Positions 24,696 to 53,260 are shown, counted from the stretch's first letter. The stretch is 64,000 nt of DNA from an uncultured Clostridia bacterium (GCA_944376905.1 CALWEA010000006.1:3563-67562); one strand, 5' to 3'. The notes: a model not told the origin generated them from the letters alone. Translations and numbers: made by a program.

Positions 24696-26057
24696 CTACA
24701 TCTCAAAATCTTTTTCTCTTTTCTTTCTTTTCTCTTTTAGTTTTTCAAGTTCACAAATCCTTTGTTCTATTTCTTCATCTGTCATTTTGTCTCTTGAAAA
24801 TTCCTCGACTTGTTCTTTCTGCTTTTCTTGAATTTTTGTGTTAAGTCTATCAGTTGCTTCTCTTACATAATCGCTATTGACAGAATTATAAACTGTGATT
24901 GTTGTTTTAACATCTCTATGTCCTAAAAGTTGTTGGATAACTTTTGGATTTTCGTTCATTTCAAAAAGCATATTAGAAAAAGTGTGCCTTAATCCGTGAA
25001 AATGAATATCGAATTTATCTAGTCCATTTCTTCTTTTAAATCTATCAAATATCTTTCTAGTTCCCGAATAAGTCCTATAACTTCCATCATCGTTAGCAAA
25101 CACAAAAGATGTAGGAGATGTCAAAGTAGCAGTCACATCAGGATTAGTTTTTTGTCTATCATACTGCTTATCTTTCCACTGTCTTAAAGTTGCTATGACA
25201 ATATCGGCAACAGGTATTTCTCTTACACTGCAAGTTGTTTTCGTATCACCAATGACTGTTATTCGGTCTTTAATATTGCCTTGTTCATCAAACTTAGGCA
25301 CTTGTGTTATTGCTCTTTCAACTTTTATTGTTTTATTGTCAAAGTCTATGTCTTTCCATTTTAAAGCAAGAGCCTCACCAATACGAAGTCCCGCAAACAT
25401 AAGAGTAATGCAAAGTGGCTTTATAAAATTTGCTTCATCTTTATTTAAAGCATCTAAAAATTTATCCCTAATCTCTGGTGGCATTGCTTTATATTTTTCA
25501 TCATCATTTGCTTGATAAATATTCCTTTTGCCTTTAATTTTTACTTTAAGTGTAGGATTTACAAGTATCCATTTGTTATCAATTGCATATTCAAAAAATT
25601 GATTTAATAAGTGTTTACATTTTTTGACGGTATCATTACTATATCCTTGTTCCATTAAATTGTTAACTAATTTTTGTATAGTATAGTTATCTATTTCATA
25701 AACTTTCATTTTGCCTATTAGTGGAGCAATATGCAATTTGAAATTTCTAATGTTCCCTTCAAATGTTCGTGAACTTACAGCACTCTTTTTAAAAGTCATA
25801 AGATATTCAAACATCAAACTTTCTATGTTGTTTTGCTCAACTAAATCATACGAATTACTTTTTATTCTACCACTTATTTCAGAAAGTTTTTTAACTATTT
25901 CTGCTCTAGATTTTCCATAAATTGTCTTTCGTATAATCTTTCCATTTTCATCATAGCCCATCGTTAGTGCTCCGCCCCAACGACCATCACTTCTTTGAAA
26001 AATTGAACCTTCATTATTTGCTCTACGAGTTCTCTTAACTGCTTTCTTTTTAGCCAT
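24696..26057 (-). CDS. Tyrosine recombinase/integrase with N-terminal arm-binding-type domain
   Basis: Carries NNEGSIFQRSDGRW... (AP2-like arm-binding N-terminus), LRIGEALAL, HGLRHTF and LLGHRDVKTTITVY catalytic-region motifs. The ATG overlaps the xis stop (ATGGCTAA). Confidence 0.9.
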   Translation of the reverse strand: MAKKKAVKRTRRANNEGSIFQRSDGRWGGALTMGYDENGKIIRKTIYGKSRAEIVKKLSEISGRIKSNSYDLVEQNNIESLMFEYLMTFKKSAVSSRTFEGNIRNFKLHIAPLIGKMKVYEIDNYTIQKLVNNLMEQGYSNDTVKKCKHLLNQFFEYAIDNKWILVNPTLKVKIKGKRNIYQANDDEKYKAMPPEIRDKFLDALNKDEANFIKPLCITLMFAGLRIGEALALKWKDIDFDNKTIKVERAITQVPKFDEQGNIKDRITVIGDTKTTCSVREIPVADIVIATLRQWKDKQYDRQKTNPDVTATLTSPTSFVFANDDGSYRTYSGTRKIFDRFKRRNGLDKFDIHFHGLRHTFSNMLFEMNENPKVIQQLLGHRDVKTTITVYNSVNSDYVREATDRLNTKIQEKQKEQVEEFSRDKMTDEEIEQRICELEKLKEKRKKREKDFEM

Positions 26058-26304
26058 TTTGCACCTCACTTTGAGCATTGTTGAGTGTTAGCCAAGTCAC
26101 AAAATTTAGCACACTTACAACTTGTCTTTTCCCGACTTTTGTTGTTGGGAAAGTTTTGCTTCGCATAAGATTTCTCACATTATCTCTGCCAAGTCCTGTG
26201 ATTTTGATAAGGTCCTCACAGTCTAAAAAATCTTTGCCATATTTTAAAGAAATTCTATTCACTTCGCTTTGTATAAGTTCGTTTAAATTGATTGTATTTT
26301 GCAT
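26050..26304 (-). CDS. Excisionase-like / MerR-type HTH DNA-binding protein
   Basis: 84 aa with ITGLGRDNVRNLMRSKTFPTTKVGKRQVVSV. Translationally coupled upstream of int. Paralogs sit at the same position in E2 and E3. Confidence 0.7.
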   Translation of the reverse strand: MQNTINLNELIQSEVNRISLKYGKDFLDCEDLIKITGLGRDNVRNLMRSKTFPTTKVGKRQVVSVLNFVTWLTLNNAQSEVQNG

Positions 26305-26692: not shown

Positions 26693-27871
26693 CTACATTT
26701 CGTATTCATTTCTTTCTCTATAAGCTTCAAGTTTTTCAAAAAATCTTTGAAATTCTATCATCTCATATTGCTCTTGCTGTTTGTAGTAATCTAAACAAGA
26801 GAACAAATATTCAAGTTGTCTTTTTCTCTGTCGTTTCTTGAAAAATCTATCTCGCTTTGTGTGAGTTGTTATGCTGTCTAATTTGTCTTTAATCTTGCCA
26901 ATTTCGAGTGCTGTTTGAATTGTCTTATTGCCAAGCCTTCGCATTAATTCATTGTGATAAATCTCTGGGTCATACTTGTCTGGTATGTGTTTGTAATTTT
27001 TGTTTTGCCAAATTTTAAGATTTAAAATTTGAGTTTTGTAGTCAAGATATTTCAATTTCATTTCTTTGTTTGAATAGATAATACTTTCGGTCAGTTTATC
27101 AACTTCGTTTTTAAGAAACTCCATATTTTCGCTGTCATAACTAACTCTTCCTGTCTTTGGTATTTGTGAATATAACTTCAAAAACTTTCTTTTAAGCGAC
27201 CGTGTCATTTCAAAAATATTAGCGCTTCCATTAAACTCTTCTTTTAAATCTTTTCGCAATTTGACAATCTCGGCAGTTTTGTTTGTGAGCGCTTTTTCAA
27301 AGATAAGTTTGCTTGTGATTAAAACATCTTTTGGTATCTTTCCAGAATGATAGGAGAGTGTTCTATTATTCTTCATAAACTGTGGTTCTTTCTCAAAAAA
27401 TGATATGTGGATATGCTTGTTTTCGGTGTTCTCGTGTAGTCCTGCATACCAAACAATGTTGTCTTTATCAAGTCCTGCACGAGTAAAGAATTTTGGCAGC
27501 TCTTTCTTTAAAAAGTTGTAGGCTTGCTCATAATCTCTGCAATACTCGTCACCAAATTCTTCACGAAAAGAAATCACACAATCCCATATACAACTTTGAG
27601 TGTCCCTTAACATTTCTCTTAACCCTCGTTTCTCATCATCACTTAAAAGACCTTTCGAACTAAACACACCGCAAGACTTTTCACTGTTGCCAACATATTC
27701 AGTGTAATCTTTTGGAACGCTGTCAAGACTACCTGTGTCAACATAACTGACATAGTTATAACTGCCATTGCAACTTAAAAATTCTCGCTTACGAATTTTA
27801 TCTTCTTGCTTTGTGTTGTATTTATCACTTGGCTTGTAATACTTGCAAATAAAAACAATGTTATCTGTCAT
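26693..27871 (-). CDS. Relaxase-like mobilization protein (His-triad H-x6-H-x-H)
   Basis: WYAGLHENTENKHIHISFFEK has the spacing of the HxDExxPHxH relaxase motif. The N-terminus is Tyr-rich. Preceded by a coupled RHH gene. Four paralogs in the window. Confidence 0.65.
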   Translation of the reverse strand: MTDNIVFICKYYKPSDKYNTKQEDKIRKREFLSCNGSYNYVSYVDTGSLDSVPKDYTEYVGNSEKSCGVFSSKGLLSDDEKRGLREMLRDTQSCIWDCVISFREEFGDEYCRDYEQAYNFLKKELPKFFTRAGLDKDNIVWYAGLHENTENKHIHISFFEKEPQFMKNNRTLSYHSGKIPKDVLITSKLIFEKALTNKTAEIVKLRKDLKEEFNGSANIFEMTRSLKRKFLKLYSQIPKTGRVSYDSENMEFLKNEVDKLTESIIYSNKEMKLKYLDYKTQILNLKIWQNKNYKHIPDKYDPEIYHNELMRRLGNKTIQTALEIGKIKDKLDSITTHTKRDRFFKKRQRKRQLEYLFSCLDYYKQQEQYEMIEFQRFFEKLEAYRERNEYEM

Positions 27872-28098: not shown

Positions 28099-28175
28099 AC
28101 TTCCTCCTTTTTAGTTTTAGATTTTGAGTTTAAATTTAATTTTACATTTCACACCTCCTTTTAAATTATTTTACT

Positions 28176-28385: not shown

Positions 28386-28692
28386 ATTTGTTAAGAAAAA
28401 ATATCTCTGCTTCTGCAAAGATATTAGTCCCTCTACTTATATAACCAACACTTTTTTAATTTTGTGGGGTCATTTTGAGCCTTTTTTTTAAAATAATTTA
28501 AAAAATTTTTACATAACAAAAAAAGAAGCAAGCAAAAACTTACTTCTAACAATGCAAAAGAAAACTTTTCTTTATTTTAATTTCTTTTGAAAGTACATTT
28601 TTCAACACAAACAAAAAATAATATTATTATATAAAATAATAAAAGAGTGTTATAGCAATTTGCCTTTAACACTCTTTTTGTTGTTTGTTAAT

Positions 28693-30862: not shown

Positions 30863-33800
30863 ATGACAAATGCAAAAAAGGGACAACATTCAAAGTTGTT
30901 GCTCTTAATCGCTGCTTTAGGTTTTATTATATTTTGTGCAGTTGTTTTGACCGCTTGCGGTAAAAAAGACCCAAAATATACTGTTCCTGAAGGACTTACA
31001 GCGACTTATGGTGAGACTTTGGAAGATGTAGTTCTCCCAGAAGGGTTTAGTTGGGAAGACCCAATTACTACTTCAGTTGGAGAAGTAGGAGATAATACAT
31101 TTAAGGTTACTTTTACTCCAGAAGATACAGATAATTATAATACTGTTACTGGAATTGACGTAACCATTACAGTAACTCCAGCAGATTTAGTTGCACCAAC
31201 AGGACTTACAGCGACTTATGGTCAAACACTTGCCGACATATCTTTACCAGAAAATTGGATATGGGCAGTTGAAACTATTACTTCTGTAGGTAATGTTGGA
31301 GAACAAGTTTTTACTGTAAATTATATAGGCGAAGATGCTGAAAATTATGCTAATACAACAAATGTTCAAATAACTATTACTGTTACAAAAGCAAGCAATG
31401 AATTAACAGGAACAGTTTCAATCACAGGTTGGACATATGGAGAAGAAGCAAACACTCCATCAGGTGTTGAGGCTACATTTGGTGATGTAGTTTATAAATA
31501 CAGCACATCAGAAGATGGTCAATATTCAGAAGTAGTTCCAACAGATGCAGGAACATACTATGTTAAAGCAGTTGTAGTAGGAACTGTAAACTACGACGGA
31601 GCAGAAAGCGAAGCAGTAGAATTTGCTATTGCTAAAGCAGATTTAGTTGCTCCAACAGGGCTTACAGCAACATATGGTCAAACACTTGCTGATGTAGAAG
31701 TTCCAGAAAATTGGACGTGGACAGCAGTAGAAACATCAGTTGGTAATGTAGGTGAAAATACATTTACAATAAAATATGCTGGTGAAGATGCTGCAAATTA
31801 TAACCAAGTAGAATTTGAAGTTAAAGTTGCTGTTGCAAAAGCAAGCAATGAAGTAACAGGAACAGTTTCAATCACAGGTTGGACATATGGAGAAGAAGCA
31901 AACACTCCATCAGGTGTTGAGGCTACATTTGGTGATGTAGTTTATAAATACAGCACATCAGAAGATGGTCAATATTCAGAAGTAGTTCCAACAGATGCAG
32001 GAACATACTATGTTAAAGCAGTTGTAGAAGGAACTGAAAATTATGACGGAGCAGAAAGCGAAGCAGTAGAATTTACTATTGCTAAAGCAGACCCTGAATA
32101 TACTGCACCAACTTTTGAAGAAACTTATGATGTTCACACAACTTTAAGCGAACTTACTTTCGAAGATGAAAGATTTTCTTGGAAAGAACCTGCAACTGTA
32201 GTTGCTTTTGGAGAAAATAGTTATACAGCTGTATATACACCAGAAGATACAGCAAACTATAATACTGTTGAAGTTCAAATTGCAGTTACAGGTGGTTATG
32301 TAATGCCTAAAGTTGAAGCAGATTTAGGGGAAGCAGCATTTACTATTGATAATGCTACTATCTCTAACACTATGGGTAATGACGTAACTCCTTCTATTAC
32401 AGTTGGCAAATTGACTGTTGATGAAGACTATGCAGTTATTTGGCAATATTATAATGAAAGTAAATCTGCTTGGGAAAATGTAAGTTATCATGTTGGATTT
32501 GCTGCAGGTGAATACAAAGCAATTATCAAAGGACTTAATAATTATGATGGTCAACAAAAGGAAGCACTCTTTACAGTAACCAAATCTGAATTCAATGGAA
32601 CTATTGAAATTCAAAGTGTAGATTTTAGTGTTTATGAAGGAGGCACAGTTGCAGACATAACTGTTAAGGAACTTGAAAACTTCTTTGGAACATTAACTTG
32701 GGATACAGAAGACCCAGATTATGCAACACCATTTGAAATAGGTGAAAATGTAAGATATGCTGATATTACAGGCGGAAGAAATTACAATGCAAAAGAGCAT
32801 GTTGCAGTTACTATTGTAGTTGCAAAAACTATCAAAAATTTCACTGAATTTAAAACTGCTATTAGCGAAGGAACAACTGAACTTTATATCACAGGAACAA
32901 CTGTTGTTAACGAAGATATAACAGTTCCAAAAGGTGTTTCAATCAGAGTTAAAAAGAGTGTAAACTTCACAGTTAACGGTGGAACATTAACTATGGAAGG
33001 ATTCTCTATTGTTAATGAAGGAAAAGTTAATACTAGAGCAACAAACTCTTTACTTAAAGGTGATTTTGTAATCCTTGCAAACACTGCAAATAATGTTGTT
33101 TCAGCAGTTAATTCCGGATTTGTAAGCAAAATTGTTTTAAATAATGATATTAATTTTATTGAAAATCAAGTTTGGAAATTCACTAGTGCTAGAACATTAG
33201 AGATTGATTTAAATGGTCATAATATTAATGGTTCTATTGCAATTACAACAAATGATAATGATGCTGAAGATCCACACGCAGCAGTTGCCGATAAAATTGA
33301 TATTACTATCACAAACTCTCAAGAAGAGGGTGGTAAAATCACAGGTAAAATGATTGGTAACGTAAATTATGCTTTATTTGTTGAAGGAAATGCCGAAGCA
33401 TTGACTGTAAAACTTAATAATGTTATCGTTGAAAGTGCAGGATTTGCCCTTTCTACAAACGGACAATATGCAGGAGCAACTATTGTTGCAACTGACAGCA
33501 CGTTCACATCAACACTTAATAATAAAGTTGCCGTTTATCTTCCTGCAGATTACACAGTAACATTTACTAATTGTCAAATCTCTGGTGCAACAGGTATTTA
33601 CGTTCGTAATGGTAACGTTACTATTTCAAACAGCACTGTTACAGCAACAGGTGAATATGTTGAACCTGTTTTCACTCAAGGTAGTGCACAATCAATAGGT
33701 AGTGCAATAATTGTTGACTCTGCTTATGGATATGCAGATGAAATCACTGTTACAGTTACTGGAACTACTATTAACAGCACTAATGGTTATGGTATTCATG

Positions 33801-33907
33801 AGATAGCAACTGCTCCAGAAGGACAAGAGGCTAAAGATGTTGCTATTGTAACACAAAGTGAAAATACAATTCAAGCAACAAAAGGTGAAACAATCATTCT
33901 TCAATAA
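30863..33907 (+). CDS. Large surface lipoprotein with repeated YG-type (MBG-like) domains and a C-terminal beta-helix-like region
   Basis: Signal peptide with lipobox VLTAC. The motif TATYG(E/Q)TL.D..LPE.. recurs at least 4 times. SD AAAGGAG. Confidence 0.8.
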   Translation: MTNAKKGQHSKLLLLIAALGFIIFCAVVLTACGKKDPKYTVPEGLTATYGETLEDVVLPEGFSWEDPITTSVGEVGDNTFKVTFTPEDTDNYNTVTGIDVTITVTPADLVAPTGLTATYGQTLADISLPENWIWAVETITSVGNVGEQVFTVNYIGEDAENYANTTNVQITITVTKASNELTGTVSITGWTYGEEANTPSGVEATFGDVVYKYSTSEDGQYSEVVPTDAGTYYVKAVVVGTVNYDGAESEAVEFAIAKADLVAPTGLTATYGQTLADVEVPENWTWTAVETSVGNVGENTFTIKYAGEDAANYNQVEFEVKVAVAKASNEVTGTVSITGWTYGEEANTPSGVEATFGDVVYKYSTSEDGQYSEVVPTDAGTYYVKAVVEGTENYDGAESEAVEFTIAKADPEYTAPTFEETYDVHTTLSELTFEDERFSWKEPATVVAFGENSYTAVYTPEDTANYNTVEVQIAVTGGYVMPKVEADLGEAAFTIDNATISNTMGNDVTPSITVGKLTVDEDYAVIWQYYNESKSAWENVSYHVGFAAGEYKAIIKGLNNYDGQQKEALFTVTKSEFNGTIEIQSVDFSVYEGGTVADITVKELENFFGTLTWDTEDPDYATPFEIGENVRYADITGGRNYNAKEHVAVTIVVAKTIKNFTEFKTAISEGTTELYITGTTVVNEDITVPKGVSIRVKKSVNFTVNGGTLTMEGFSIVNEGKVNTRATNSLLKGDFVILANTANNVVSAVNSGFVSKIVLNNDINFIENQVWKFTSARTLEIDLNGHNINGSIAITTNDNDAEDPHAAVADKIDITITNSQEEGGKITGKMIGNVNYALFVEGNAEALTVKLNNVIVESAGFALSTNGQYAGATIVATDSTFTSTLNNKVAVYLPADYTVTFTNCQISGATGIYVRNGNVTISNSTVTATGEYVEPVFTQGSAQSIGSAIIVDSAYGYADEITVTVTGTTINSTNGYGIHEIATAPEGQEAKDVAIVTQSENTIQATKGETIILQ
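31181..32086 (+). repeat. Tandem intragenic duplication (units 31181-31636 and 31637-32086)
   Basis: The 3' 260 bp of each unit (31381-31640 versus 31831-32090) differ at about 7 positions by my count. The 5' parts are clearly more diverged and differ by a 6-nt indel. Confidence 0.9.
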
Positions 33908-34929: not shown

Positions 34930-36126
34930 TTACATTTCAAAATCACTACTTAAATATCCTTGTTCAATCAATGTTTTAATTCTCATCTCTTCAAGCGTAT
35001 TCATATAATCTTGAAATGCTTTAATAGTCTCGTATTCAACCTTTGAATTAAGATATAAACACTCATCAATTTCTTTTATCAACTTGCGTTTTTGAATGCG
35101 TTTTTCTACCAAATTTTTAGCATTCAATTTTAATCTATCGTTTTCTTTAAGTTTTAAATTTTTAGCACTTTCAATGACAAGATTGCCAAGTCTTCGATAG
35201 ATATCATTCATCATTTTATCGCCAACACTTTGAATAGGTTTATCATACCCGTTACGCCTGCAATAGTTGTTCACAAGTTCATCTTTTTCTTTCACCATTT
35301 CATCAAAATCTTGTTTGTAAAGTGATATATTTGAATTGTGTTTAATGATGTAGTTTGAAATATTATCAACCTGTGATTTTAAATTTTGCATACTTTCAGA
35401 ATTGTAAAAAGTGGGCTTATTTTGTGGAATTTGATTTGCAAGACTTATTAGCATATTCTTTAATTTAAGACTTGAAATCCCGCTTATTTCCTCTTTAAAA
35501 CTTTTTGTTAAATTAGTTCTTAACTTAATCTCTCGTGCTTTAAAGTCGGTTGCTATAAGTTCAATATTTGCCTTAAACTCGTCCATTGCCTTTGATGATA
35601 TTCGGCCACGAGAAAAACCTTTTTCATTACCTCTAATTCGCAAAGGTTGTTTCTCAAAAAAGACTATGTGAATATGCCTGTTATCAGTGTTTTCGTGAAG
35701 CCCTGCAAACCATTCAATGTTGTTAGGATTAAGTCCTGCTCGTTTGAAATATTTAGGCAATTCACTCTTAACTAGATTGTAAGCTTGCTCAAAATTTGCA
35801 CACCATTTTTTGCCAAACTTCTCTTCAAAAGAAATAATACCGCTCCAAATAACTGACTTTGTTTTTCTTAAATCTTTTCTCACTTTTGCAATATCTTCAC
35901 TTTTCATCTTACCATTTTGATTAAATATTCCAGATGATTTTGAATTATTGTTTGAATACTCGACAAAATCAAGTTTTTGTAAATCCTTAATACCCGTTGC
36001 AATATATTTTAAATAATCACTATATTTGTTTGAAGAATAATAATCTCTCTTGTCCTGCATTTTCTTATCTTTGTAGTGGGGTAGAAAGAACTCTTGCATA
36101 TACACAACATTAGGAACACTATTCAT
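34930..36126 (-). CDS. Relaxase-like mobilization protein (paralog, module B1)
   Basis: WFAGLHENTDNRHIHIVFFEK. Same architecture as 26693-27871 and ends in DFEM. Confidence 0.65.
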   Translation of the reverse strand: MNSVPNVVYMQEFFLPHYKDKKMQDKRDYYSSNKYSDYLKYIATGIKDLQKLDFVEYSNNNSKSSGIFNQNGKMKSEDIAKVRKDLRKTKSVIWSGIISFEEKFGKKWCANFEQAYNLVKSELPKYFKRAGLNPNNIEWFAGLHENTDNRHIHIVFFEKQPLRIRGNEKGFSRGRISSKAMDEFKANIELIATDFKAREIKLRTNLTKSFKEEISGISSLKLKNMLISLANQIPQNKPTFYNSESMQNLKSQVDNISNYIIKHNSNISLYKQDFDEMVKEKDELVNNYCRRNGYDKPIQSVGDKMMNDIYRRLGNLVIESAKNLKLKENDRLKLNAKNLVEKRIQKRKLIKEIDECLYLNSKVEYETIKAFQDYMNTLEEMRIKTLIEQGYLSSDFEM

Positions 36127-36577: not shown

Positions 36578-36675
36578 AAAACCTCCCAATAATTTTTAAA
36601 GTCTTTCTATATCTTTTCCTATTTCAAATTAAAGGGACAATAATTTTCACCTCCTTTTAATTTACAACAAAAAAA

Positions 36676-36700
36676 AGAACTGTCGGCGGATAACAGTTCT
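36676..36700. promoter_or_regulatory. Conserved hairpin AGAACTGT-CGGCGGATA-ACAGTTCT upstream of the mob operon
   Basis: Same loop with different stems at 45723-45747 and 58972-58996. Followed by a CCCCTCAT..TATA box (minus-strand TATAAT-like). Confidence 0.7.
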
Positions 36701-36787
36701 CTATTTCGTTTTATATTTATAGCCCCTCATTATATAGGACAAAAATAAGCAAAAAATTAAGGCATTTTTAGAGTTTTATGTTAAATT

Positions 36788-37531
36788 TTAAAAAAATTTT
36801 TGTTTTAAAGCCTTTTCTTTCAGTTTTTCAATAAAATCATCAACCATTTTTAACACTTGCATAACATTTCCTTTAAAAGTTTTAAGTTTTTCAAAGTGAG
36901 CCTCAATTCCATATTCTGCAAATGCTTTGTTTGTATTTTTAATCCAATTATCGTCAAGATTAGAGTAGTCAATTTGTTTGCTTAATTGCTCTTTAATGTT
37001 TTTATTTGCACCAGTCTTTATTGTGCGTGAAATTGCTTTCTTAATCTCTTTTATCAAATCTTGCACATCATTCAAATTTACTTTAAATTGACCAGTTTTT
37101 CTTATTTCTTCAATATATTGTTTAAATCCTTGTTCGGTTTCAAGTTGTAGATTATAAAATTCTTCAGTATCTTTAAATTCTTTATCATTGCAAAGATAAG
37201 TGCGATAATTTAAGAAAATCGTATCAAGTCTTCCATTGATAGCAGCAGGGCTAATACCTAACTTTTCGGCAATATCTTTTTGCTTAACACCAGTCATATA
37301 GTCAAGCAAAATTTCTCTATCTTCTTGTGACAATTTATAAATATTCCTGTATAAAACTTTAGTGTTGATTTTCTTCTGCCATTCATCTTCAGCAGAAACA
37401 GAGTAGTGTCCATGATTTGCGATAACGTTTTCTATATCTTGACCAGTTTTCTGTTCAATCTGTGAAAAACTAACTTCGTGCCTTCTTACTTTTCTTTCCA
37501 AGCTTTCTATACTAGGTTGTTTATCTTCCAT
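36788..37531 (-). CDS. Sigma-70 region-4 / LuxR-type HTH protein (element regulator)
   Basis: LSQEDREILLDYMTGVKQKDIAEKLGISPAAINGRLD. A paralog sits at the same relative position in E2 (45833-46600). Confidence 0.55.
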   Translation of the reverse strand: MEDKQPSIESLERKVRRHEVSFSQIEQKTGQDIENVIANHGHYSVSAEDEWQKKINTKVLYRNIYKLSQEDREILLDYMTGVKQKDIAEKLGISPAAINGRLDTIFLNYRTYLCNDKEFKDTEEFYNLQLETEQGFKQYIEEIRKTGQFKVNLNDVQDLIKEIKKAISRTIKTGANKNIKEQLSKQIDYSNLDDNWIKNTNKAFAEYGIEAHFEKLKTFKGNVMQVLKMVDDFIEKLKEKALKQKFF

Positions 37532-37569: not shown

Positions 37570-38925
37570 TCAAAAATTATATCTTGATTTTATAATTTCT
37601 TTTATTTCTGACAAAGTATAATCTGCTTCCTCAAAAATCATACATTCTATTAAAACCAAACCAACCAAAAATGCACAAATTGAAGGATTAGTAAAATCAA
37701 TAACGCCTCCGTGAGCATCATTATTTCTAAATTTTGAAAATTCATCACCTAATAATTTTTCGTTTTTCAATCCATATCTATGTAGAATTTTTGTTAAAAA
37801 ATTATCAATAGCTGGCTGGTAATGTCCTAAACATCTATTATATTGGGTAGCAACAGAATTTAAATCATTATAAAGAACTTCTATTATATGTTTGTAGTAT
37901 TTCTTATAATTCTTATTTAATTTTTCTTTTTCAATTTTTTCATCTAGAATTTGTTTTATATACTCAATACTATCTATTTTATATTTATCTTTTTTGGGCA
38001 ATGTTTTAAAAATAAGTTCATAGTTATGTTCAAATGCTCCACAAACTTTTATATAACTTTCAGATGTAATGTATTTTGCTTCAAAGTTATCTTTTGCAAT
38101 AAAATTATTATTCAAATCATTTTCAGTAATTTTTGAAAATAGTTTTCCAATATTGGGCACTAAATTATTTATTGTATAAGATAATTTTATATCATTTAGT
38201 TTAGCAGTATTATCAATAAAATACCCGATTTTATCGAAATTTCCATTTGAACTTTTCAATCCCACTTCAATTTCCTCAAAATAAATATCTTTTTGTTTTA
38301 TTAAGAACTGAAAAAATTTACGAACAGAGATATATAATGGTAAAATCTCTTTAATGTCTTTTTCTTCTTCAAAATGAATTTCAAAGTAAGAAACTAATTT
38401 GCCCAAATCTTCATCTTTCGGATTAATAGTTCCTGGCCAATATACACCAAATTTGCAATGAATTTGCTCTTGATTAATAGTAGTTTCAAAATCCACATCT
38501 GTTTCATCAAAACTTTTTAGTATAATTTTTTTTGAACCATCAAATTTAGCTTTTAAATTTCTTGCACTATCATATTTTACTTTTTGTATAGGGGGAAATA
38601 ATAAGTTAACTATTTTCCCCTTAAATAATAATCTATTAAATTTATTTTTAATCGGCCCAGCATATCTTGGAATAAATATCATTGATGGGTAAATGACAGC
38701 AGTATCATCTATAATATTATTTCGGCAAATATTATTATATAAACCAACTAATCCACCAGTCGTAAGATTTGCCATTAAAAATTCTTCTTTCTTTTCCATG
38801 CCTAATCCTACGCCTTCATCTTCTAATAAATTGAGATTTAACTTTTTCCCATCATAATAAAACGAATATTTGTCATTTTTACTAAAAACATCACTTATAA
38901 AGCCACTAAATTGATAATTTTCCAC
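37570..38925 (-). CDS. HEPN-like (Rx4H) protein, ApeA-like architecture
   Basis: 451 aa. C-terminal FSKFRNNDAHGG fits the HEPN R-x4-H motif in a helical region, and the N-terminal two thirds look beta-rich. The start lies 2 nt after the MmeI-like stop. Confidence 0.45.
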   Translation of the reverse strand: MENYQFSGFISDVFSKNDKYSFYYDGKKLNLNLLEDEGVGLGMEKKEEFLMANLTTGGLVGLYNNICRNNIIDDTAVIYPSMIFIPRYAGPIKNKFNRLLFKGKIVNLLFPPIQKVKYDSARNLKAKFDGSKKIILKSFDETDVDFETTINQEQIHCKFGVYWPGTINPKDEDLGKLVSYFEIHFEEEKDIKEILPLYISVRKFFQFLIKQKDIYFEEIEVGLKSSNGNFDKIGYFIDNTAKLNDIKLSYTINNLVPNIGKLFSKITENDLNNNFIAKDNFEAKYITSESYIKVCGAFEHNYELIFKTLPKKDKYKIDSIEYIKQILDEKIEKEKLNKNYKKYYKHIIEVLYNDLNSVATQYNRCLGHYQPAIDNFLTKILHRYGLKNEKLLGDEFSKFRNNDAHGGVIDFTNPSICAFLVGLVLIECMIFEEADYTLSEIKEIIKSRYNF

Positions 38926-38927
38926 TT

Positions 38928-41684
38928 TTACTCCCTCGTTATTTTCTGATACATTTTCATAAGTTCAGAAACACATTCACTTTCTGTTTTAACTTTTCCC
39001 CAAAAACCATAGGCTTCCATAACTGCTTTATCGTTAAGTTGATGTGCTTTTCTTAATTCTGGTGGCATTGTAACTTCATCATAAAGATCAGCAAGAGAAC
39101 AATCTTTATATTTTTCTCTTGCAGTTAAAATAGATTGTGCAGTTTTTCCAATCTTTGCTTGTTGTTCTTTTGTTGGATTAGGCCAAGGGAAATTATTGTA
39201 TACTATATCTTTTGAGTATCTATATCTCATTTCTAATCTACCTGCCAAGGCTCTCATCCATGCCATATGAACATTTGATGTTAGAATTCCAAAATGATAT
39301 AATCCCGCATTAGGAATAATTTGGACTGCATCTGATGCTATTGTATCTTTTGACATAAAGCCAATAGGTATATATCGTCTCTTTTCGGAAGATACTCTCG
39401 GAACAATAATATAATTTACATTTGAAGGTTGAGTAATTTGTGCGAATATCATTGGTGTTGAAGCAAATTTTCTTGTGCTTTCTGCCTTGCTTTTTAATCT
39501 AAAATCTTTTACAAGTTCAATTCGTTTCATAACTGTTGGGCATTGTTTTAATTCGTGAGGATTTGCACCAACTAACCACAAGCACCATCTGGATTTGTTG
39601 TTTATAAATTCTTCTGCTCCAATGTAAGGGTGTATCCATTTTGCAGAAAGTGGTTCTTTTTTAATAAGTTCTTCTTTTTCTTCATTTGTAAGAATAAATC
39701 CTCCGCCATCTCTTGGCATATTCCCAAAGTTCATTGGTGGAATATTGCAAATAGGTTTTGATTTACTATCGATAAATATATTTTCAGCATCCATTAAATA
39801 AGAATTTATATTTGAAACTATACGAGCTCTATCGTTATCATAAATTATTTTAGATTTTCTATTAACAAAAGAAAATCCAACAATAACACAATGGACTCTT
39901 GCTTTTTGCTGTGCCTCGCTATCCCACACAAAGGTTCTATATGCAAACTGAATTTTAATACCTTTTTCAAATAAAGGTTTCCACATTGTGACCGCTTGTT
40001 GCCCTTGACATATTGAATTAGTTGAAACAAAAGCAACTTCTATTGATGTTCCTTTAATATAATCAGTTGCTTTATAATACCAACCAGAAACAAAATCCAG
40101 TTCTCCAACACCTTTAACATCTCCGACAACAGCAATAATATCTTGTTTTTGTTCTCTTGACATCATCATTCCACCAACAAAAGGTGGGTTGCCCATTATA
40201 TAAGTGAGTTTTTCTTTTGAAATAACTTTATTCCAATCAATTCGTAGTGCATTTCCCTCAACAATATTTGCATAAGACTTTAACGGGAAGAATTCAAGCT
40301 GTTGATTAACAATTTCTTCTGTTTCTTTCATCATTTGAGACTCGGATATCCATAGTGCTGTCTTTGCAACAGTGACTGCAAAGTCATTTATTTCAATTCC
40401 ATAGAATTGCCCAATTGATACTTTTATTACATCTCCCAAGTCAATCATAGTTTGTCCACGAGTTTGCGCAATTAAAGCTTCGTTTTCTAATCTTCTTAGT
40501 GAAATATATGTTTCTGTCAAAAAGTTTCCAGAACCACAAGCAGGGTCAAGAAAGGTTAATGTAGAAAGCTTATTCCTAAAAGCTTCCAATTGCTGTTTTC
40601 TTGTTTTTTCAACCTTAATTTCTTTTATTTTTTCTAATTCATCTTTTAAATTGTCTAAAAATAATGGGTCTATGACTTTATGAATATTCTCAATAGAAGT
40701 GTAGTGCATACCACCACTTCTACGAGTTTCTGGGTTTAATGTGCTTTCAAAAACAGCACCAAAAATAGTAGGACTAATTTCACTCCAGTCAAAATTTTCG
40801 CTTGCTTTATGTAAAAGAATATCAATAATCTCATCTGTCAAATGTGGAATAATAATTTTTTCATTAGCAAACAAACCACCATTTACATAAGGAAATTTTG
40901 CAAGTTCATCATCTAGATATTTATCTCTATCTTCAATCTTTGTGTCCAAGACTTTGAATAAATCAATCAAGGCTCTTCTAGTGTCTTTAACTTGAAAACT
41001 TTGTAGATAATTGTGAAAAGCTAACTTTTCGCCAAACAAACCACTATCTTCAGCATAAAGACAAAATACAAGTCTTACACAAAGTTCGTTAAGGCTCTTT
41101 AATTCTTGCTCATCTTTTTCGTTGTATTGTTTAAGTAAGGCGTCATAAAGAATACCAACAATTTCACCAGCCTTAATGGATATTTCCATTTCTTTTTTGA
41201 TATTCTCATTTTGACTATTTACAATAAATTGTAAACGATAATATTCCTTTGGAAGATTTTTAAGCAATATACTTTCAGGTTCTCCATTAGGTTTTTCCAT
41301 ATCATATATTAAAAACTCTTGGAAATTACAAGTAATAATCCATCTTGGTCTTTTAGAGTATGGAAGGTCAGCTGAATACCTTTTTGCTTGTTGAAATGGA
41401 GTAAGAAGAGTTCCATCTGCTTGTCTTATTGCTTTTCTTAAATCTCGGTCTCTACTTTTTTGTTCAATTAAAACATGTGTAGCAGAAATATAGCCGTCAA
41501 TAAAACTTGTATGGTCCAGCATAACTTTATCTTCAAAAGAAATATATTGTTCTGGATTGTCAACACCCAAAACTTTATTTAATAAAGTCAACCAAAAAAC
41601 TTGACTTTGTCCTTTTTCATAACCTTTATCAGCCCAAAAATTTGCAAATTCTTTTGCTTGTTTTCTTATCTCCAAATCGTTCAT
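38928..41684 (-). CDS. MmeI-family type IIL/IIG restriction-modification enzyme (nuclease plus N6-adenine methyltransferase plus target-recognition domain)
   Basis: N-terminal D-x10-EQK (FIDGYISATHVLIEQK), SAM motif I FLDPACGSGNFL and motif IV IMGNPPFVGG. The 918-aa size is typical of the family. Confidence 0.8.
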   Translation of the reverse strand: MNDLEIRKQAKEFANFWADKGYEKGQSQVFWLTLLNKVLGVDNPEQYISFEDKVMLDHTSFIDGYISATHVLIEQKSRDRDLRKAIRQADGTLLTPFQQAKRYSADLPYSKRPRWIITCNFQEFLIYDMEKPNGEPESILLKNLPKEYYRLQFIVNSQNENIKKEMEISIKAGEIVGILYDALLKQYNEKDEQELKSLNELCVRLVFCLYAEDSGLFGEKLAFHNYLQSFQVKDTRRALIDLFKVLDTKIEDRDKYLDDELAKFPYVNGGLFANEKIIIPHLTDEIIDILLHKASENFDWSEISPTIFGAVFESTLNPETRRSGGMHYTSIENIHKVIDPLFLDNLKDELEKIKEIKVEKTRKQQLEAFRNKLSTLTFLDPACGSGNFLTETYISLRRLENEALIAQTRGQTMIDLGDVIKVSIGQFYGIEINDFAVTVAKTALWISESQMMKETEEIVNQQLEFFPLKSYANIVEGNALRIDWNKVISKEKLTYIMGNPPFVGGMMMSREQKQDIIAVVGDVKGVGELDFVSGWYYKATDYIKGTSIEVAFVSTNSICQGQQAVTMWKPLFEKGIKIQFAYRTFVWDSEAQQKARVHCVIVGFSFVNRKSKIIYDNDRARIVSNINSYLMDAENIFIDSKSKPICNIPPMNFGNMPRDGGGFILTNEEKEELIKKEPLSAKWIHPYIGAEEFINNKSRWCLWLVGANPHELKQCPTVMKRIELVKDFRLKSKAESTRKFASTPMIFAQITQPSNVNYIIVPRVSSEKRRYIPIGFMSKDTIASDAVQIIPNAGLYHFGILTSNVHMAWMRALAGRLEMRYRYSKDIVYNNFPWPNPTKEQQAKIGKTAQSILTAREKYKDCSLADLYDEVTMPPELRKAHQLNDKAVMEAYGFWGKVKTESECVSELMKMYQKITRE

Positions 41685-41852
41685 AAGTAAATCTCCATAA
41701 AACGATTATACCATAACTTTATTTAAATTGGTATTTAATTTCCAAAAAATTATTACTTATAACAAAATCAATTTTTCTTTTAAAAAGTAGACAATCAACC
41801 TTAGTAGTTTTATACAGTCCTAGAACGACTAAATTGCTCAAAAATACCACAT

Positions 41853-41872
41853 TTGCTGTCAATTGCTGTCAA
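41853..41872 (+). promoter_or_regulatory. attR-side arm repeats of E1 (TTGCTGTCAA x2)
   Basis: ATTTGCTGTCAATTGCTGTCAAA is identical to 23833-23855. It lies about 107 nt left of the TTGGTAAGG core at 41980. Confidence 0.65.
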
Positions 41873-41978
41873 AATTAAATAGTAAAATACAGCAAATATT
41901 TTTGTAATATTATAATCGCATTTATTTATCTATGTTTTTAAGATGCGGGGCTCACACACTTTATTTATAGGGCTCAAT

Positions 41979-42024
41979 CTTGGTAAGGTAGGGGTCACGG
42001 GTCCGATTCCCGTCACCAGCTCCA
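41979..42024 (+). pseudogene. 3' fragment of a tRNA-Thr-like gene (anticodon loop to CCA)
   Basis: CTTGGTAAGGTAGGGGTCACGGGTCCGATTCCCGTCACCAGCTCCA aligns with positions 31-76 of the intact tRNAs. No matching 5' half lies upstream. Confidence 0.8.
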
Positions 42025-42273: not shown

Positions 42274-43626
42274 TCACATCTCAAAATCTTTTTCTTTTTT
42301 CTTTCGGCGAAGTTCCTTTTGTCTTAAAAGTTCTTCAAGTTGTTCTTCTAATTCTTCATCAGTAAGCTCATCAGCCTGTTGTGATTTTTCTTGCGTAAAG
42401 TTTTTACTAATACTTTCATTCAGTCTGTCTGTTGTTGCTCTCACATATTCATTGTTCACACTGTTGTAAACTGAAATTGTTGTTTTTACATCTCTATGCC
42501 CAAGCAGTTGTTGGATTGCTTTTGGATTTTCATTTAACTCAAAAAGCATATTTGAAAATGTGTGTCTTAAAGTGTGAAAATGAATTTGATAATCATTTAG
42601 GTTATTTCTTTTCTTAAATCTATCAAATATTTTTCGTGTGCCTGAATATGTTCTAACACTTCCGTCATCGTTGCAAAATATATATCTATCACTTTTAATA
42701 AGGTCAAAGTTTATTTCTATGCTTTTAATTGATTGTTTGTTTTTCCATTCTTGCAAAGAATTAACCACAACATCTGTGATTGGTATTGTTCTAACAGAAC
42801 AAGCTGTTTTGGTATCGCCAACAACAGTTACTCTTTTTGTAATATTTCCATCGCTATCAAAACTAGGCACTTGTGTTATGCCACTTTCTATGCTTAAAGT
42901 TTTCTTTTGTTCATCAAAGTTATCCCAGCGAAGTGCTAAAACCTCTCCAATGCGTAATCCTGCAAATAGTAGTGTTACGCATAAAGGTTTTAAAAAATTG
43001 CTTTCATCTTCATTAAGTGCTGTAAAAAATTTCTCTCTGACTTCTGGTGTCATAGCCTTGTATTTGTTTTTATCATTATTTTGCACTCTGTCTTTTGTTC
43101 TAACTTTTACTTTTGCTGTTGGATTAAATTGCACCCATTTGTTATCTATTGCATAATCAAAAAATTGATTGAAAATAAATTTCACTTTCTTAATAGTGTT
43201 GTTATTATACTCCTCATCTATCATAGCATTTACAACTTTTTGTATTGCGGTTGTGTCTATTTCATAAACTTTCATTTTGCCAAGCATTGGTTCTATGTGT
43301 AATTTAAAATTTCTAATATTACCTTCAAAAGTTCGTGGGCTTACCGCACTCTTCTTGAAAACCAACAGCCACTCTTTCATAAGTTCTCCAAAGGTTTTCT
43401 TTTCTAAAATTTCATAAGAATTGCTTTGTAGTCTGCCAGAAATTTCACTTAATTTTTTTGCTATTTCTGTTTGGTTTTTCCCATAAATAATTTTACGAAT
43501 TGGCTTGCCTTCTTCATCAAATCCCATACTCACATAACCAGCCCAACGACCATCTTTTCGTTGAAAGATTGAACCCTCATTATTGGCTCGTCTTGTTTTG
43601 TTTACGACTTTGTTTTTCTTAGCCAT
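42274..43626 (-). CDS. Tyrosine recombinase/integrase (E2)
   Basis: Paralog of 24696-26057 with HTLRHTF and LLGHRDVKTTISVY. The ATG overlaps the xis stop. Confidence 0.9.
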   Translation of the reverse strand: MAKKNKVVNKTRRANNEGSIFQRKDGRWAGYVSMGFDEEGKPIRKIIYGKNQTEIAKKLSEISGRLQSNSYEILEKKTFGELMKEWLLVFKKSAVSPRTFEGNIRNFKLHIEPMLGKMKVYEIDTTAIQKVVNAMIDEEYNNNTIKKVKFIFNQFFDYAIDNKWVQFNPTAKVKVRTKDRVQNNDKNKYKAMTPEVREKFFTALNEDESNFLKPLCVTLLFAGLRIGEVLALRWDNFDEQKKTLSIESGITQVPSFDSDGNITKRVTVVGDTKTACSVRTIPITDVVVNSLQEWKNKQSIKSIEINFDLIKSDRYIFCNDDGSVRTYSGTRKIFDRFKKRNNLNDYQIHFHTLRHTFSNMLFELNENPKAIQQLLGHRDVKTTISVYNSVNNEYVRATTDRLNESISKNFTQEKSQQADELTDEELEEQLEELLRQKELRRKKKEKDFEM

Positions 43627-43879
43627 TCGCCACCTCACTTGTGTTGTTTTTAAGTGTTAGCCAAGTGACAAAATTAAGCACACTTACGACTTGTCTTTTA
43701 CCAACTTTTGTTGTTGGAAAATCTTTGCTACGCAAGAGTTGTCTTACATTATCTCTGCCAAGCCCAGTGATTTTCATAATATCTTCACAGTCTAAAAAAT
43801 CTTTATCATATTTAGTTGAAATTCGGTCAACTTCCGATTGAATTAAATTGTTAATATTAAGTTGTTGATTGTTGTTCAT
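43619..43879 (-). CDS. Excisionase-like HTH protein (E2)
   Basis: Paralog of 26050-26304. ATG 43879 matches the paralog N-termini; the ORF-track extension to 44002 is unlikely. Confidence 0.7.
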   Translation of the reverse strand: MNNNQQLNINNLIQSEVDRISTKYDKDFLDCEDIMKITGLGRDNVRQLLRSKDFPTTKVGKRQVVSVLNFVTWLTLKNNTSEVANG

Positions 43880-53184: not shown

Positions 53185-53260
53185 GCTGTTGTGGCACAGT
53201 CGGTAGCGCACTGCCTTGGTAAGGCAGAGGTCACGGGTTCAAGTCCCGTCAACAGCTCCA
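53185..53260 (+). tRNA. tRNA-Thr (anticodon GGU), second copy, CCA encoded
   Basis: Acceptor GCTGTTG/CAACAGC and anticodon stem CTGCC/GGCAG, with compensatory differences from copy 1. The D and T arms are identical to copy 1. Confidence 0.9.

What the first reader, a model, noticed from the sequence alone, without database searches (positions are those of the whole stretch)
37570..41684. MmeI-type restriction-modification enzyme translationally coupled to a HEPN-like (Rx4H) protein
The 918-aa gene has the full MmeI-family layout: an N-terminal D...EQK nuclease, DPACGSGNF and NPPF methyltransferase motifs, and a long C-terminal target-recognition region. Such enzymes normally act alone. Here its stop (38928) is separated by only 2 nt from the start of a 451-aa protein. 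The C-terminus of that protein carries FRNNDAHGG, which fits the HEPN R-x4-H ribonuclease motif, behind a large beta-rich N-terminal domain. This architecture is reminiscent of ApeA-type abortive-infection proteins. Inference: the pair forms a two-layer module combining DNA restriction with an RNase-type backup. Alternatively the HEPN protein monitors the RM enzyme. The pair lies at the attR end of E1, downstream of a sigma-like regulator.
Basis: partly seen in the sequence, partly recalled or inferred. Interest (0 to 1): 0.65.

Follow-up and report, generated by a model that had tools for sequence, protein, structure and literature searches.

The report
MmeI restriction enzyme plus ApeA-like RNase
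A mobile element in a chicken-gut Clostridia genome carries an intact MmeI-type restriction-modification enzyme followed 2 bases later by a predicted suicide-type RNase of a known but untested family, a pairing of DNA-cutting and RNA-cutting defences that was proposed in general terms in 2013.

Summary
On the minus strand, a 918-aa gene (41684..38928) is a full-length MmeI homologue. It matches the solved MmeI structure at E 1.7e-212 and all five MmeI Pfam domains. Two nucleotides after its stop, a 451-aa gene (38925..37570) starts.

The 451-aa protein hits no Pfam, NCBIfam, PADLOC or PDB entry itself. It does belong to a family of about 486 clusters. In 100-120 diverse members of that family the only invariant residues are R400 and H405 of RNNDAH. 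The family consensus hits Pfam ApeA_NTD1 (62 bits), and 25 of 100 members hit HEPN_Apea.

It is not detectably related to the experimentally studied E. coli ApeA beyond the 14-residue catalytic motif. Foldseek gave no HEPN match.

In 12 of 14 loci the close homologues are the last gene of DNA-methyltransferase or restriction operons. The partner changes between loci: MmeI, Eco57I-like, type I, MT-A70 or Dam. Other relatives are solitary or follow AbiA.

The best reading is a co-expressed, layered defence cargo at the attR end of a tRNA-Thr mobilizable element, with no MmeI-specific coupling. HEPN-RM linkage for this family was described in 2013, so this is a new member of a known kind.

The parts
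38928..41684 (-). MmeI-family type IIL/IIG restriction-modification enzyme, 918 aa. PD-ExK nuclease residues D63/E74/K76, helical spacer, gamma-class N6-adenine methyltransferase (DPACGSGNF at aa 380, NPPF at aa 499), target-recognition domain (aa 632-836) and C-terminal domain.
   Evidence: Five MmeI Pfam domains match, E 1e-91 to 2e-20. PADLOC REase_MTase_IIG scores 1209 bits. Full-length match to solved MmeI 5HR4, E 1.7e-212, with the nuclease triad aligned. Motif positions.
37570..38925 (-). 451-aa short-form ApeA_NTD1 + HEPN_Apea protein, a predicted latent RNase effector. GTG start.
   Evidence: No direct Pfam, NCBIfam, PADLOC or PDB hit. 486 clusters are related at E<=1e-3. A family HMM built without this protein and its 5 closest relatives scores it at 279 bits, E 2e-87, over the full length. 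The family consensus hits ApeA_NTD1 at 62 bits, and P0022 hits HEPN_Apea at 26.7 bits against a cut-off of 24.4. 25 of 100 members hit HEPN_Apea and 16 of 100 hit ApeA_NTD1.
38191..38925 (-). N-terminal beta-rich domain (aa 1-245), ApeA_NTD1-like. Presumed sensor or regulatory domain.
   Evidence: AF2 model shows strands throughout residues 6-238. The consensus hit to ApeA_NTD1 covers model positions 21-269 of 271. Anantharaman 2013 describes ApeA-NTD1 as about 300 aa, mostly beta.
37570..38190 (-). C-terminal all-alpha domain (aa 246-451) assigned to HEPN (Apea-like), plus the stop codon.
   Evidence: AF2 domain model has pLDDT 91 and is all helices. Relatives hit HEPN_Apea. Foldseek found no significant match.
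37711..37728 (-). Codons for R400-N-N-D-A-H405, the Rx4H catalytic-type motif.
   Evidence: R400 and H405 are the only invariant columns in 100 and 120 diverse homologues, and N401 is above 90%. It is the only Rx4-6H in the protein, with 0.14 Rx4H expected by chance.
38926..38937 (-). Gene junction: Shine-Dalgarno-like GAGGGAG (38937-38931) inside the end of the MmeI gene, TAA stop (38930-38928) and a 2-nt spacer before the GTG at 38925.
   Evidence: Sequence. The same tight layout (stop, 2-3 nt, start) occurs behind non-homologous Eco57I-type genes in L006 and L022. L008 has 13 nt because of a 1-nt deletion.
41693..41713 (-). Candidate promoter and RBS of the operon: extended -10 TGgTATAAT (41713-41705) and GGAG (41696-41693), before the ATG at 41684.
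   Evidence: Read directly from the sequence. It was not called by the consensus scan, which requires a -35 hexamer. This is an inference.
41979..42024 (+). 46-nt copy of tRNA-Thr(GGT) from the anticodon loop to the 3' end. It is the attR of the element that begins at the complete tRNA-Thr 23553-23628, and it also borders the next element, whose integrase is at 43638..42274.
   Evidence: No chance match was found in 100 shuffles.
41830..41880 (+). GCTGTCAA-type repeats shared with 23812-23862, next to the other end of the element. Candidate integrase arm-type sites.
   Evidence: Repeat family D7, 82% identity between the two ends. Their function is an inference.
36788..37531 (-). 247-aa sigma-70 region-4/HTH protein, 38 nt downstream of the ApeA-like gene. 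It is the first backbone gene of the mobilizable element (followed by a 156-aa ORF and a MobL relaxase) and may be co-transcribed.
   Evidence: Pfam and NCBIfam sub-threshold sigma-70 r4 hits. The same order ApeA-like, sigma-like, 156 aa, MobL is seen in L009 and L017.
36674..36702 (-). First terminator-like hairpin with a T-run downstream of the pair, on the coding strand.
   Evidence: 11-bp stem, T-run. No terminator was called between MmeI, the ApeA-like gene and the sigma-like gene.

Best explanation
The pair is defence cargo at the attR end of a tRNA-Thr-integrating mobilizable element, in an uncultured chicken-gut Clostridia bacterium. The element backbone carries a sigma-like gene, a MobL relaxase and an integrase.

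Gene 1 is an intact MmeI-family enzyme. By family knowledge it methylates its own recognition site and cuts unmodified incoming DNA.

Gene 2 is transcribed with it. It is a short-form member of the ApeA_NTD1 + HEPN_Apea family, with a beta-rich N-terminal sensor domain and a C-terminal HEPN-type, metal-independent RNase that carries the R400/H405 dyad.

Inference: the RNase is latent. When an infection gets past or disables restriction, it cuts RNA, with tRNA or mRNA as the likely targets. This stops translation and aborts the infection, giving DNA restriction as the first layer and RNA cleavage as the second.

The ApeA-like gene behaves as an autonomous cassette that rides at the 3' end of many kinds of DNA-methyltransferase and restriction operons. 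It is not a dedicated partner of MmeI.

Shown: gene identities, the conserved catalytic dyad, operon-like spacing and recurrent linkage.
Inferred: RNase activity, latency, the trigger and the defence phenotype.
For: - The MmeI identity is certain.
- Family membership and the invariant R/H dyad are established.
- In 12 of 14 distinct loci of the close clade, a co-directional DNA methyltransferase or RM gene lies within four genes upstream, and the ApeA-like gene is always last. The gap is usually under 50 nt.
- The neighbourhoods are defence islands or mobile elements. They contain AAA_21+RloB, TIR, Fic, KAP NTPase, AbiA and a type I RM.
- No terminator was called between the two genes.
- Metatranscriptome contigs from three chicken-gut runs span the junction.
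- Near-identical ApeA-like genes (98-99%) sit behind MmeI alleles whose target-recognition regions differ. Specificity therefore diversifies while the module is kept.
- Precedent: at least 16 HEPN clades, ApeA/BMEI1217 among them, are linked to R-M systems and are interpreted as multi-pronged defence (PMC3710099).
Against: - There is no experimental datum for any member with this architecture. None was found in the held literature.
- The window protein itself misses every curated model.
- Foldseek did not recover a HEPN fold.
- There is no detectable homology to validated Ec1ApeA beyond the motif, so tRNA cleavage is an analogy only.
- Metatranscriptome contigs may contain DNA carry-over and have no strand information.
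- The linkage count rests on 14 loci and has no matched control for the methyltransferase density of defence islands.
Confidence: 0.6

Rival explanations
1. PrrC-like guard. The ApeA-like protein binds the MmeI enzyme, is held inactive by it, and fires when a phage anti-restriction protein inhibits the enzyme.
For: - The gene is embedded in RM operons with stop-start gaps of 2-3 nt in several loci.
- The precedent is PrrC-EcoprrI, summarised in PMC3710099.
- The partners share one property: all are DNA-modification enzymes.
Against: - Partners are non-homologous (MmeI, Eco57I-type, type I, MT-A70, Dam/DndB), yet the ApeA-like proteins stay 55-68% identical in both domains. Identity does not track the partner.
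- In L011 two unrelated genes lie between the MmeI gene and the ApeA-like gene.
- Solitary and AbiA-linked relatives exist.
- There is no ABC ATPase domain such as PrrC has.
Confidence: 0.12
2. Signal coupling through DNA breakdown products. Restriction followed by exonuclease digestion yields short deoxy-oligonucleotides or dinucleotides that bind the ApeA-like protein and switch on the RNase, as 5'-phosphorylated pdNG dinucleotides do for Ec2ApeA.
For: - Ec2ApeA is activated by deoxydinucleotides (bioRxiv 10.64898/2026.01.26.701840).
- Any restriction system would produce such a signal, which would explain why the partner is interchangeable.
Against: - The Ec2ApeA pocket is built from an alpha-helical N-terminal domain plus HEPN insertions. 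The window protein has an unrelated beta-rich N-terminal domain, and hhalign finds no similarity outside the catalytic motif.
- Ec1ApeA does not respond to dinucleotides.
- Some partner operons (MT-A70, Dam) show no recognised nuclease.
Confidence: 0.13
3. Element-stabilising addiction module. The RM enzyme and the RNase toxin mainly serve to kill cells that lose the mobilizable element, not to stop phages.
For: - The pair sits on an integrative mobilizable element, and homologues sit on conjugative elements.
- From general knowledge, RM systems can act as addiction modules and HEPN domains are toxins of TA systems (PMC3710099).
Against: - No antitoxin-like partner (MNT or a small upstream gene) is conserved next to the ApeA-like gene.
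- From general knowledge, MmeI-type single-chain enzymes are poor addiction modules because the nuclease and the methylase decay together.
Confidence: 0.07
4. The 451-aa protein is not an RNase at all. The RNxxxH helix has another role, such as nucleic-acid binding or regulation of the methyltransferase.
For: - Foldseek found no HEPN structure.
- There is no direct curated-model hit.
- Some HEPN domains are non-catalytic (PMC3710099).
Against: - R and H are absolutely invariant, and N follows R in more than 90% of 100-120 diverse members. This is the pattern of catalytic HEPN families.
- Relatives pass the HEPN_Apea threshold.
Confidence: 0.08

Closest known systems
ApeA/BMEI1217 HEPN family with the ApeA-NTD1 domain (Anantharaman et al. 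2013, PMC3710099; Pfam PF18862 + PF18739)
   Same: - A beta-rich N-terminal domain of about 250-300 aa fused to a C-terminal HEPN domain with a conserved Rx4H.
- Already reported as embedded in R-M operons, in epsilonproteobacteria.
- The family consensus and many members hit both Pfam models.
   Different: - The window protein is too diverged to hit either Pfam model itself.
- The host is a Clostridia bacterium, the partner is an MmeI-type enzyme, and the pair is cargo of a tRNA-Thr mobilizable element.
ApeA anti-phage system sensu Gao 2020 (Ec1ApeA WP_000706972.1; Ec2ApeA): a single-gene HEPN defence of about 600 aa that cleaves tRNA anticodon loops or RNA-phage genomes
   Same: - A single polypeptide with an N-terminal sensor region and a C-terminal HEPN domain.
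- The catalytic motif has the same form (RNKITH versus RNNDAH).
- A likely autonomous abortive or RNA-targeting effector.
   Different: - It is 150 aa shorter.
- Its N-terminal half is beta-rich, not the alpha-helical N-terminal and Mid domains.
- hhalign of the two family profiles aligns only 14 residues, at 2% probability.
- NCBIfam and PADLOC give no hit for the window protein.
- The ligand pocket, ring assembly and targets therefore cannot be transferred.
PrrC-EcoprrI (anticodon nuclease embedded in a type Ic R-M operon) and RloC
   Same: A HEPN RNase gene inside a restriction-modification operon, with the concept of a second line of defence behind restriction.
   Different: There is no ABC-ATPase domain. 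The partner is a single-chain type IIL enzyme and varies freely among close homologues, so partner-specific masking is unlikely.
MmeI (PDB 5HR4) and the MmeI family of type IIL enzymes
   Same: The same five-domain layout, nuclease triad and methyltransferase motifs, with a full-length alignment.
   Different: The target-recognition region differs. Three alleles occur in near-identical elements. The recognition sequence is unknown.

Membership tests
MmeI family (type IIL/IIG RM enzymes) | Five-domain layout: N-terminal nuclease, helical spacer, methyltransferase, TRD and C-terminal domain in one chain of about 920 aa | tested here: met
   All five MmeI Pfam models match above threshold. Full-length alignment to 5HR4, E 1.7e-212.
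MmeI family (type IIL/IIG RM enzymes) | PD-ExK nuclease triad and N6-adenine methyltransferase motifs I and IV | tested here: met
   D63/E74/K76 lie in the aligned nuclease block of 5HR4. DPACGSGNF is at aa 380 and NPPF at aa 499.
MmeI family (type IIL/IIG RM enzymes) | One-strand methylation and cleavage about 20 nt from the site | not testable with these tools
   Needs enzyme assays or a methylome.
Pfam ApeA_NTD1 + HEPN_Apea family (ApeA/BMEI1217) | The protein itself scores above the gathering threshold of PF18739 and PF18862 | tested here: not met
   No hit at E<=10 for the window protein, or for the consensus of its close clade.
Pfam ApeA_NTD1 + HEPN_Apea family (ApeA/BMEI1217) | Full-length homology to proteins that do pass those thresholds | tested here: met
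   A family HMM built without the window protein and its 5 closest relatives scores it at 279 bits over the full length. The family consensus scores 62 bits on ApeA_NTD1. P0022 (E 7e-70 to the close-clade profile) scores 26.7 bits on HEPN_Apea, cut-off 24.4. 25 and 16 of 100 members hit the two models.
Pfam ApeA_NTD1 + HEPN_Apea family (ApeA/BMEI1217) | Conserved Rx4-6H motif in the C-terminal helical domain | tested here: met
   R400 and H405 are the only invariant columns.
HEPN superfamily | Four-helix HEPN core recognisable by structure comparison | tested here: inconclusive
   Confident all-alpha model (pLDDT 91), but Foldseek against the PDB gave a best E of 0.7, with Csm6' only at rank 18, E 3.7. 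The whole-protein model also gave nothing.
ApeA defence system sensu Gao 2020 (Ec1ApeA type) | Homology to Ec1ApeA across the N-terminal, Mid and HEPN domains | tested here: not met
   hhalign of the family profiles aligns only the 14-residue catalytic motif, at probability 2%. PGAP names the E. coli protein ApeA, yet the NCBIfam scan of the window protein gave no family. PADLOC models matched no ApeA model for any of 100 family members.
ApeA defence system sensu Gao 2020 (Ec1ApeA type) | Single-gene anti-phage activity that depends on the HEPN arginine; tRNA anticodon-loop or phage-RNA cleavage; ring oligomer with a ligand pocket | not testable with these tools
   Known only from experiments on Ec1/Ec2ApeA.
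PrrC/RloC-type anticodon nucleases | N-terminal ABC-type ATPase fused to the HEPN domain | tested here: not met
   No ATPase domain by Pfam. The N-terminal half is predicted to be beta-rich.
PrrC/RloC-type anticodon nucleases | Gene embedded in a restriction-modification operon | tested here: met
   Window and 11 other loci.
HEPN-MNT toxin-antitoxin pairs | Adjacent minimal nucleotidyltransferase antitoxin | tested here: not met
   No MNT gene next to it in the window or in any homologous locus.

The most novel reading that the evidence does not exclude
The beta-rich ApeA_NTD1 domain may be a generic sensor of failed or attacked DNA-methylation-based immunity. It might detect a cue common to all SAM-dependent restriction and modification systems, such as anti-restriction DNA mimics, SAM depletion or restriction-derived DNA fragments. 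This uncharacterised family of about 450-aa proteins would then be a portable backup RNase that can be plugged behind any methyltransferase or RM operon.

That reading would explain three observations: the gene is always the last gene of such operons, the partner is freely exchangeable, and both domains stay conserved across partners.
Probability: 0.12. Interest if true: 0.7.

Novelty: new member of a known kind. Interest (0 to 1): 0.36.

Why it matters
The finding gives a clean natural example of an RM enzyme and a HEPN effector sharing one transcription unit on a mobilizable element.

The short ApeA_NTD1-HEPN architecture is represented by about 486 clusters at 50% identity. It is outside the reach of the PADLOC and NCBIfam models used here, and no experimental work on it was found in the held literature.

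The architecture is also distinct from the E. coli ApeA proteins whose mechanism was worked out in 2026. Annotating it as "ApeA" would transfer a mechanism that has not been shown for it.

The recurrent terminal position behind unrelated methyltransferase and RM operons makes one question directly testable in a small operon: do RM systems and abortive RNases merely co-reside, or do they signal to each other?

Tried and rejected
1. Direct scans of the 451-aa protein against Pfam (also at E<=10), NCBIfam, PADLOC and PDB sequences found nothing relevant.
2. Profile searches of the PDB with the family alignments returned only low-complexity helical noise.
3. Foldseek of the whole model and of a separately predicted C-terminal domain against the PDB gave no significant match. 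I did not use the viral library because it would not answer that question.
4. Homologues were sought in viral contigs and plasmids. There were none for the close clade. Using the family consensus, two Bacillus thuringiensis plasmids carry a solitary homologue.
6. I obtained Ec1ApeA from an E. coli genome, built a 17-sequence profile and compared profiles. Only the catalytic motif aligns. Ec1ApeA itself hits no Pfam model. I therefore rejected filing the window protein under the validated ApeA system.
7. The first 133 residues of the "minimal" homologue Bm1ApeA, taken from the supplement of 10.64898/2026.03.20.713152, do not resemble this family's N-terminus. I rejected using that protein's phage phenotype as evidence.
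8. I considered a partner-specific guard model and rejected it because the partner turns over with no matching divergence.
9. The ApeA supplements hold only the first 400 residues of each protein, so Ec2ApeA pocket residues could not be mapped.

Full report
**1. Observation**

The minus strand carries an ATG-started 918-aa ORF (41684..38928) and a GTG-started 451-aa ORF (38925..37570). The junction reads GAGGGAG-TAA-AA-GTG. The stop and start are thus separated by 2 nt, and a Shine-Dalgarno-like sequence lies 5 nt before the start. Homologues begin at the aligned position with M-E-x-x-x-F-S-G, which supports the GTG start.

- D63...E74-Q-K76;
- DPACGSGNF at aa 380;
- NPPF at aa 499;
- FRNNDAHGG at aa 399-407.

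**2. The 918-aa gene**

It matches all five MmeI Pfam domains in order, with E from 1e-91 to 2e-20. It matches the PADLOC type IIG model at 1209 bits. It aligns with the solved MmeI structure 5HR4 over residues 5-916, E 1.7e-212, and the nuclease triad is aligned. It is an intact MmeI-family enzyme.

**3. The 451-aa gene**

It has no hit in Pfam (even at E<=10), NCBIfam, PADLOC or PDB sequences. A word-indexed search of 5.8 billion proteins found only 17 relatives, of 35-99% identity. An exhaustive HMMER search with their alignment found 486 clusters at E<=1e-3, almost all about 450 aa long and matching end to end.

In alignments of 120 and 100 diverse members (mean identity about 20%), the only invariant columns are R400 and H405, and N401 is above 90%. 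One Rx4H in this protein would not be remarkable by itself (0.14 expected). Its absolute conservation is the evidence.

Evidence that ties the family to the two Pfam models:
- Of the 100 members scanned, 25 hit Pfam HEPN_Apea (best E 1e-7) and 16 hit ApeA_NTD1 (best E 9e-11).
- The family consensus hits ApeA_NTD1 at 62 bits over nearly the whole model.
- Relative P0022, itself E 7e-70 to the close-clade profile, passes the HEPN_Apea threshold.
- An HMM built from 94 members, without the window protein and its five closest relatives, scores the window protein at 279 bits over its full length.

AlphaFold2 gives a beta-rich half (residues 1-240) and a helical half (253-451) (pLDDT 82). This matches the published description of ApeA-NTD1 as about 300 aa of mostly beta strands fused to an Apea HEPN domain (PMC3710099).

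**4. What it is not**

Foldseek against the PDB found nothing significant, either for the whole model or for a separate, confident model of the C-terminal domain (pLDDT 91). The HEPN fold therefore rests on sequence evidence only.

I fetched the experimentally studied ApeA (Ec1ApeA, WP_000706972.1, annotated by PGAP as "HEPN family anti-phage protein ApeA") from an E. coli chromosome and built a 17-sequence profile. Profile-profile comparison with the window family aligns only the 14-residue catalytic motif, at 2% probability.

Ec1ApeA is described as predominantly alpha-helical, with N-terminal, Mid and HEPN domains. It also hits no Pfam model itself. The N-terminus of the "minimal" homologue Bm1ApeA tested by Drobysheva et al. 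does not resemble this family either.

The mechanisms recently shown for Ec1/Ec2ApeA are tRNA anticodon cleavage, ring decamers, activation by deoxydinucleotides and cleavage of RNA-phage genomes. For the window protein these are analogies, not inherited properties. I found no experimental work on the ApeA_NTD1 architecture in the held literature.

**5. Genomic linkage**

Contexts were recovered for 14 distinct loci of the close clade (35-99% identity).

| Locus | Identity of the ApeA-like protein | What lies upstream |
|---|---|---|
| window | - | MmeI, 2 nt |
| L008/L017 | 98% | MmeI orthologue (93%), 13 nt, preceded by AAA_21 + RloB |
| L009 | 99% | MmeI orthologue (82%), 2 nt |
| L011/L018 | 66% | MmeI orthologue (68%), then a 126-aa gene and DUF6173 |
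| L006, L022 | 62%, 55% | Eco57I-type enzyme, 2-3 nt |
| L007 | 68% | Eco57I/TaqI_C gene plus a 185-aa gene |
| L002, L003 | 65%, 35% | MT-A70 methyltransferase operons on conjugative elements |
| L004 | 58% | DndB, Dam, DUF7226 and a 264-aa gene |
| L001/L010, L019 | 60% | type I RM followed by DUF2971 or Fic |
| L005 | 57% | solitary |
| L027 | 60% | HTH-DUF3990 and DUF3791; contig truncated |

Twelve of the 14 loci have a co-directional DNA methyltransferase or RM gene within four genes upstream. The ApeA-like gene is always the last of the cluster.

More distant relatives follow AbiA (L013) or stand alone on Bacillus thuringiensis plasmids, annotated "HEPN domain-containing protein".

Identity of either domain to the window protein does not follow the partner type. 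No matched control for defence-island background was possible.

**6. The MmeI alleles**

Between the window and L009, residues 1-480 and 841-918 are almost identical, while residues 481-840 (the end of the methyltransferase plus the TRD) are about 55% identical. Between the window and L008, the differences cluster in residues 634-840. Metatranscriptome and metagenome contigs also replace segments inside this region. Recognition specificity therefore appears to diversify by recombination, while the downstream gene stays 98-99% identical.

**7. Setting**

A complete tRNA-Thr(GGT) lies at 23553-23628, and a 46-nt copy of its 3' part lies at 41979-42024. GCTGTCAA repeats occur near both ends.

Between the two ends lie:
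- an integrase (26078..24696);
- two MobL relaxases (27871..26693 and 36126..34930);
- an IS200 transposase;
- the sigma-like gene;
- the pair.

Immediately beyond 42024, a second element starts with its own integrase, Xis-like HTH, MobL and sigma-like genes. In L009 the same backbone runs tRNA-Thr, KAP NTPase, integrase, a small ORF (unscanned, in the position of the window's Xis-like gene), MobL, 156-aa ORF, sigma-like, ApeA-like, MmeI, RloB, AAA_21. The sigma-like gene lies downstream of it in the direction of transcription.

A strong terminator follows the neighbouring integrase (42216-42173). The next terminator on the coding strand is at 36702-36674, after the sigma-like gene. An extended -10 (TGgTATAAT, 41713-41705) and GGAG precede the MmeI start.

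Contigs from three chicken-gut metatranscriptomes span the junction. This is weak support for co-transcription, because DNA carry-over cannot be excluded. The source is an uncultured chicken-gut Clostridia bacterium.

**8. Interpretation**

The best-supported reading is a co-expressed, layered defence cassette on a mobilizable element. An MmeI-type enzyme restricts unmodified DNA. A latent HEPN-type RNase of the ApeA_NTD1 family acts as a second, probably abortive, layer (confidence 0.6).

Alternatives and my estimates of each:
- A partner-specific guard of MmeI is unlikely, because the partner is exchangeable (0.12).
- Coupling through DNA breakdown products is attractive after the Ec2ApeA work, but the sensor domain here is unrelated (0.13).
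- An addiction role (0.07).
- A non-catalytic role (0.08).

**9. Novelty**

Anantharaman et al. 2013 already list the ApeA/BMEI1217 HEPN family as embedded in R-M operons. They propose multi-pronged defence for at least 16 HEPN clades, by analogy with PrrC-EcoprrI. No paper in the library links MmeI with HEPN specifically.

This is a new member of a known kind. Its value lies in three things:
- an untested architecture that current defence-finder models miss;
- the need to keep it apart from the validated ApeA;
- a compact natural operon for testing RM-Abi crosstalk.

Noticed in passing
window 23450-23628, 41979-42024, 53185-53260: The region is a tandem array of integrative mobilizable elements at tRNA-Thr(GGT). 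It holds two complete tRNA-Thr genes, a 5' half-copy at 23450-23491 and a 3' part-copy at 41979-42024. Each element has a sigma-like gene, a MobL relaxase, an Xis-like HTH in some cases, a tyrosine integrase and different cargo.
   Followed up: partly
window 39200-40250 (MmeI aa ~480-840); L008:7246-9987; L009:7233-9998: Three alleles of the MmeI gene differ almost only in the end of the methyltransferase and the target-recognition domain, while the flanks and the downstream gene are 98-100% identical. Metatranscriptome contigs replace segments at 39299-39452 and 39207-39873. This suggests specificity switching by recombination.
   Followed up: partly
window 38942 region; L008:9975-9990: A 1-nt deletion in an A-run near the 3' end of the MmeI gene (AAAA to AAA) shortens the protein by 5 residues and widens the gap to the next gene from 2 to 13 nt. 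It is seen in L008/L017 and in one metatranscriptome contig, so the 2-nt spacing is not strictly conserved.
   Followed up: yes
window 53488-55374 (-): A 628-aa protein combines an AAA_21/ABC-type ATPase with DUF4435, directly beside the second tRNA-Thr. From my own knowledge, this domain pair resembles a fused PARIS-type (AriA-AriB) or OLD-like defence protein.
   Followed up: no
window 18454-22533 (-): A 1359-aa protein has DUF4011, an SF1 helicase (AAA_11/AAA_12) and a C-terminal MTES_1575 restriction-endonuclease-like domain. It lies just outside the tRNA-Thr at 23553 and is probably another defence gene.
   Followed up: no
window 30863-33907 (+): A 1014-aa ORF has no Pfam or NCBIfam hit and contains internal repeats about 450 nt apart (for example 31377-31641 and 31827-32091, 97% identical). 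It may be a repetitive surface protein carried as cargo, next to an IS200-type transposase (29713-30168).
   Followed up: no
window 28168-28391: Four copies, spaced about 57 nt apart, of a 49-nt unit that each contain an inverted repeat. They lie about 300 nt upstream of the MobL relaxase gene 27871..26693. They could be an oriT or an iteron-like region.
   Followed up: no
L013:176-3446: A 39%-identical relative of the ApeA-like protein lies 16 nt downstream of an AbiA gene (reverse transcriptase plus HEPN_AbiA_CTD). Two HEPN proteins therefore sit in one apparent operon, and the arrangement is seen in four metagenome contigs.
   Followed up: no
L028:6001-7806: The experimentally validated Ec1ApeA hits neither Pfam HEPN_Apea nor ApeA_NTD1 at E<=1, although it takes its name from that family. 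The name ApeA currently covers two architectures that are barely connectable by sequence.
   Followed up: partly
L002:2229-7901; L003:693-2661; L007:1228-3183: On conjugative-element-like contigs (PcfJ/PcfK, DUF6809), the ApeA-like gene follows a 185-aa MT-A70 methyltransferase. In L007 a 185-aa gene with no Pfam hit occupies the same position.
   Followed up: no
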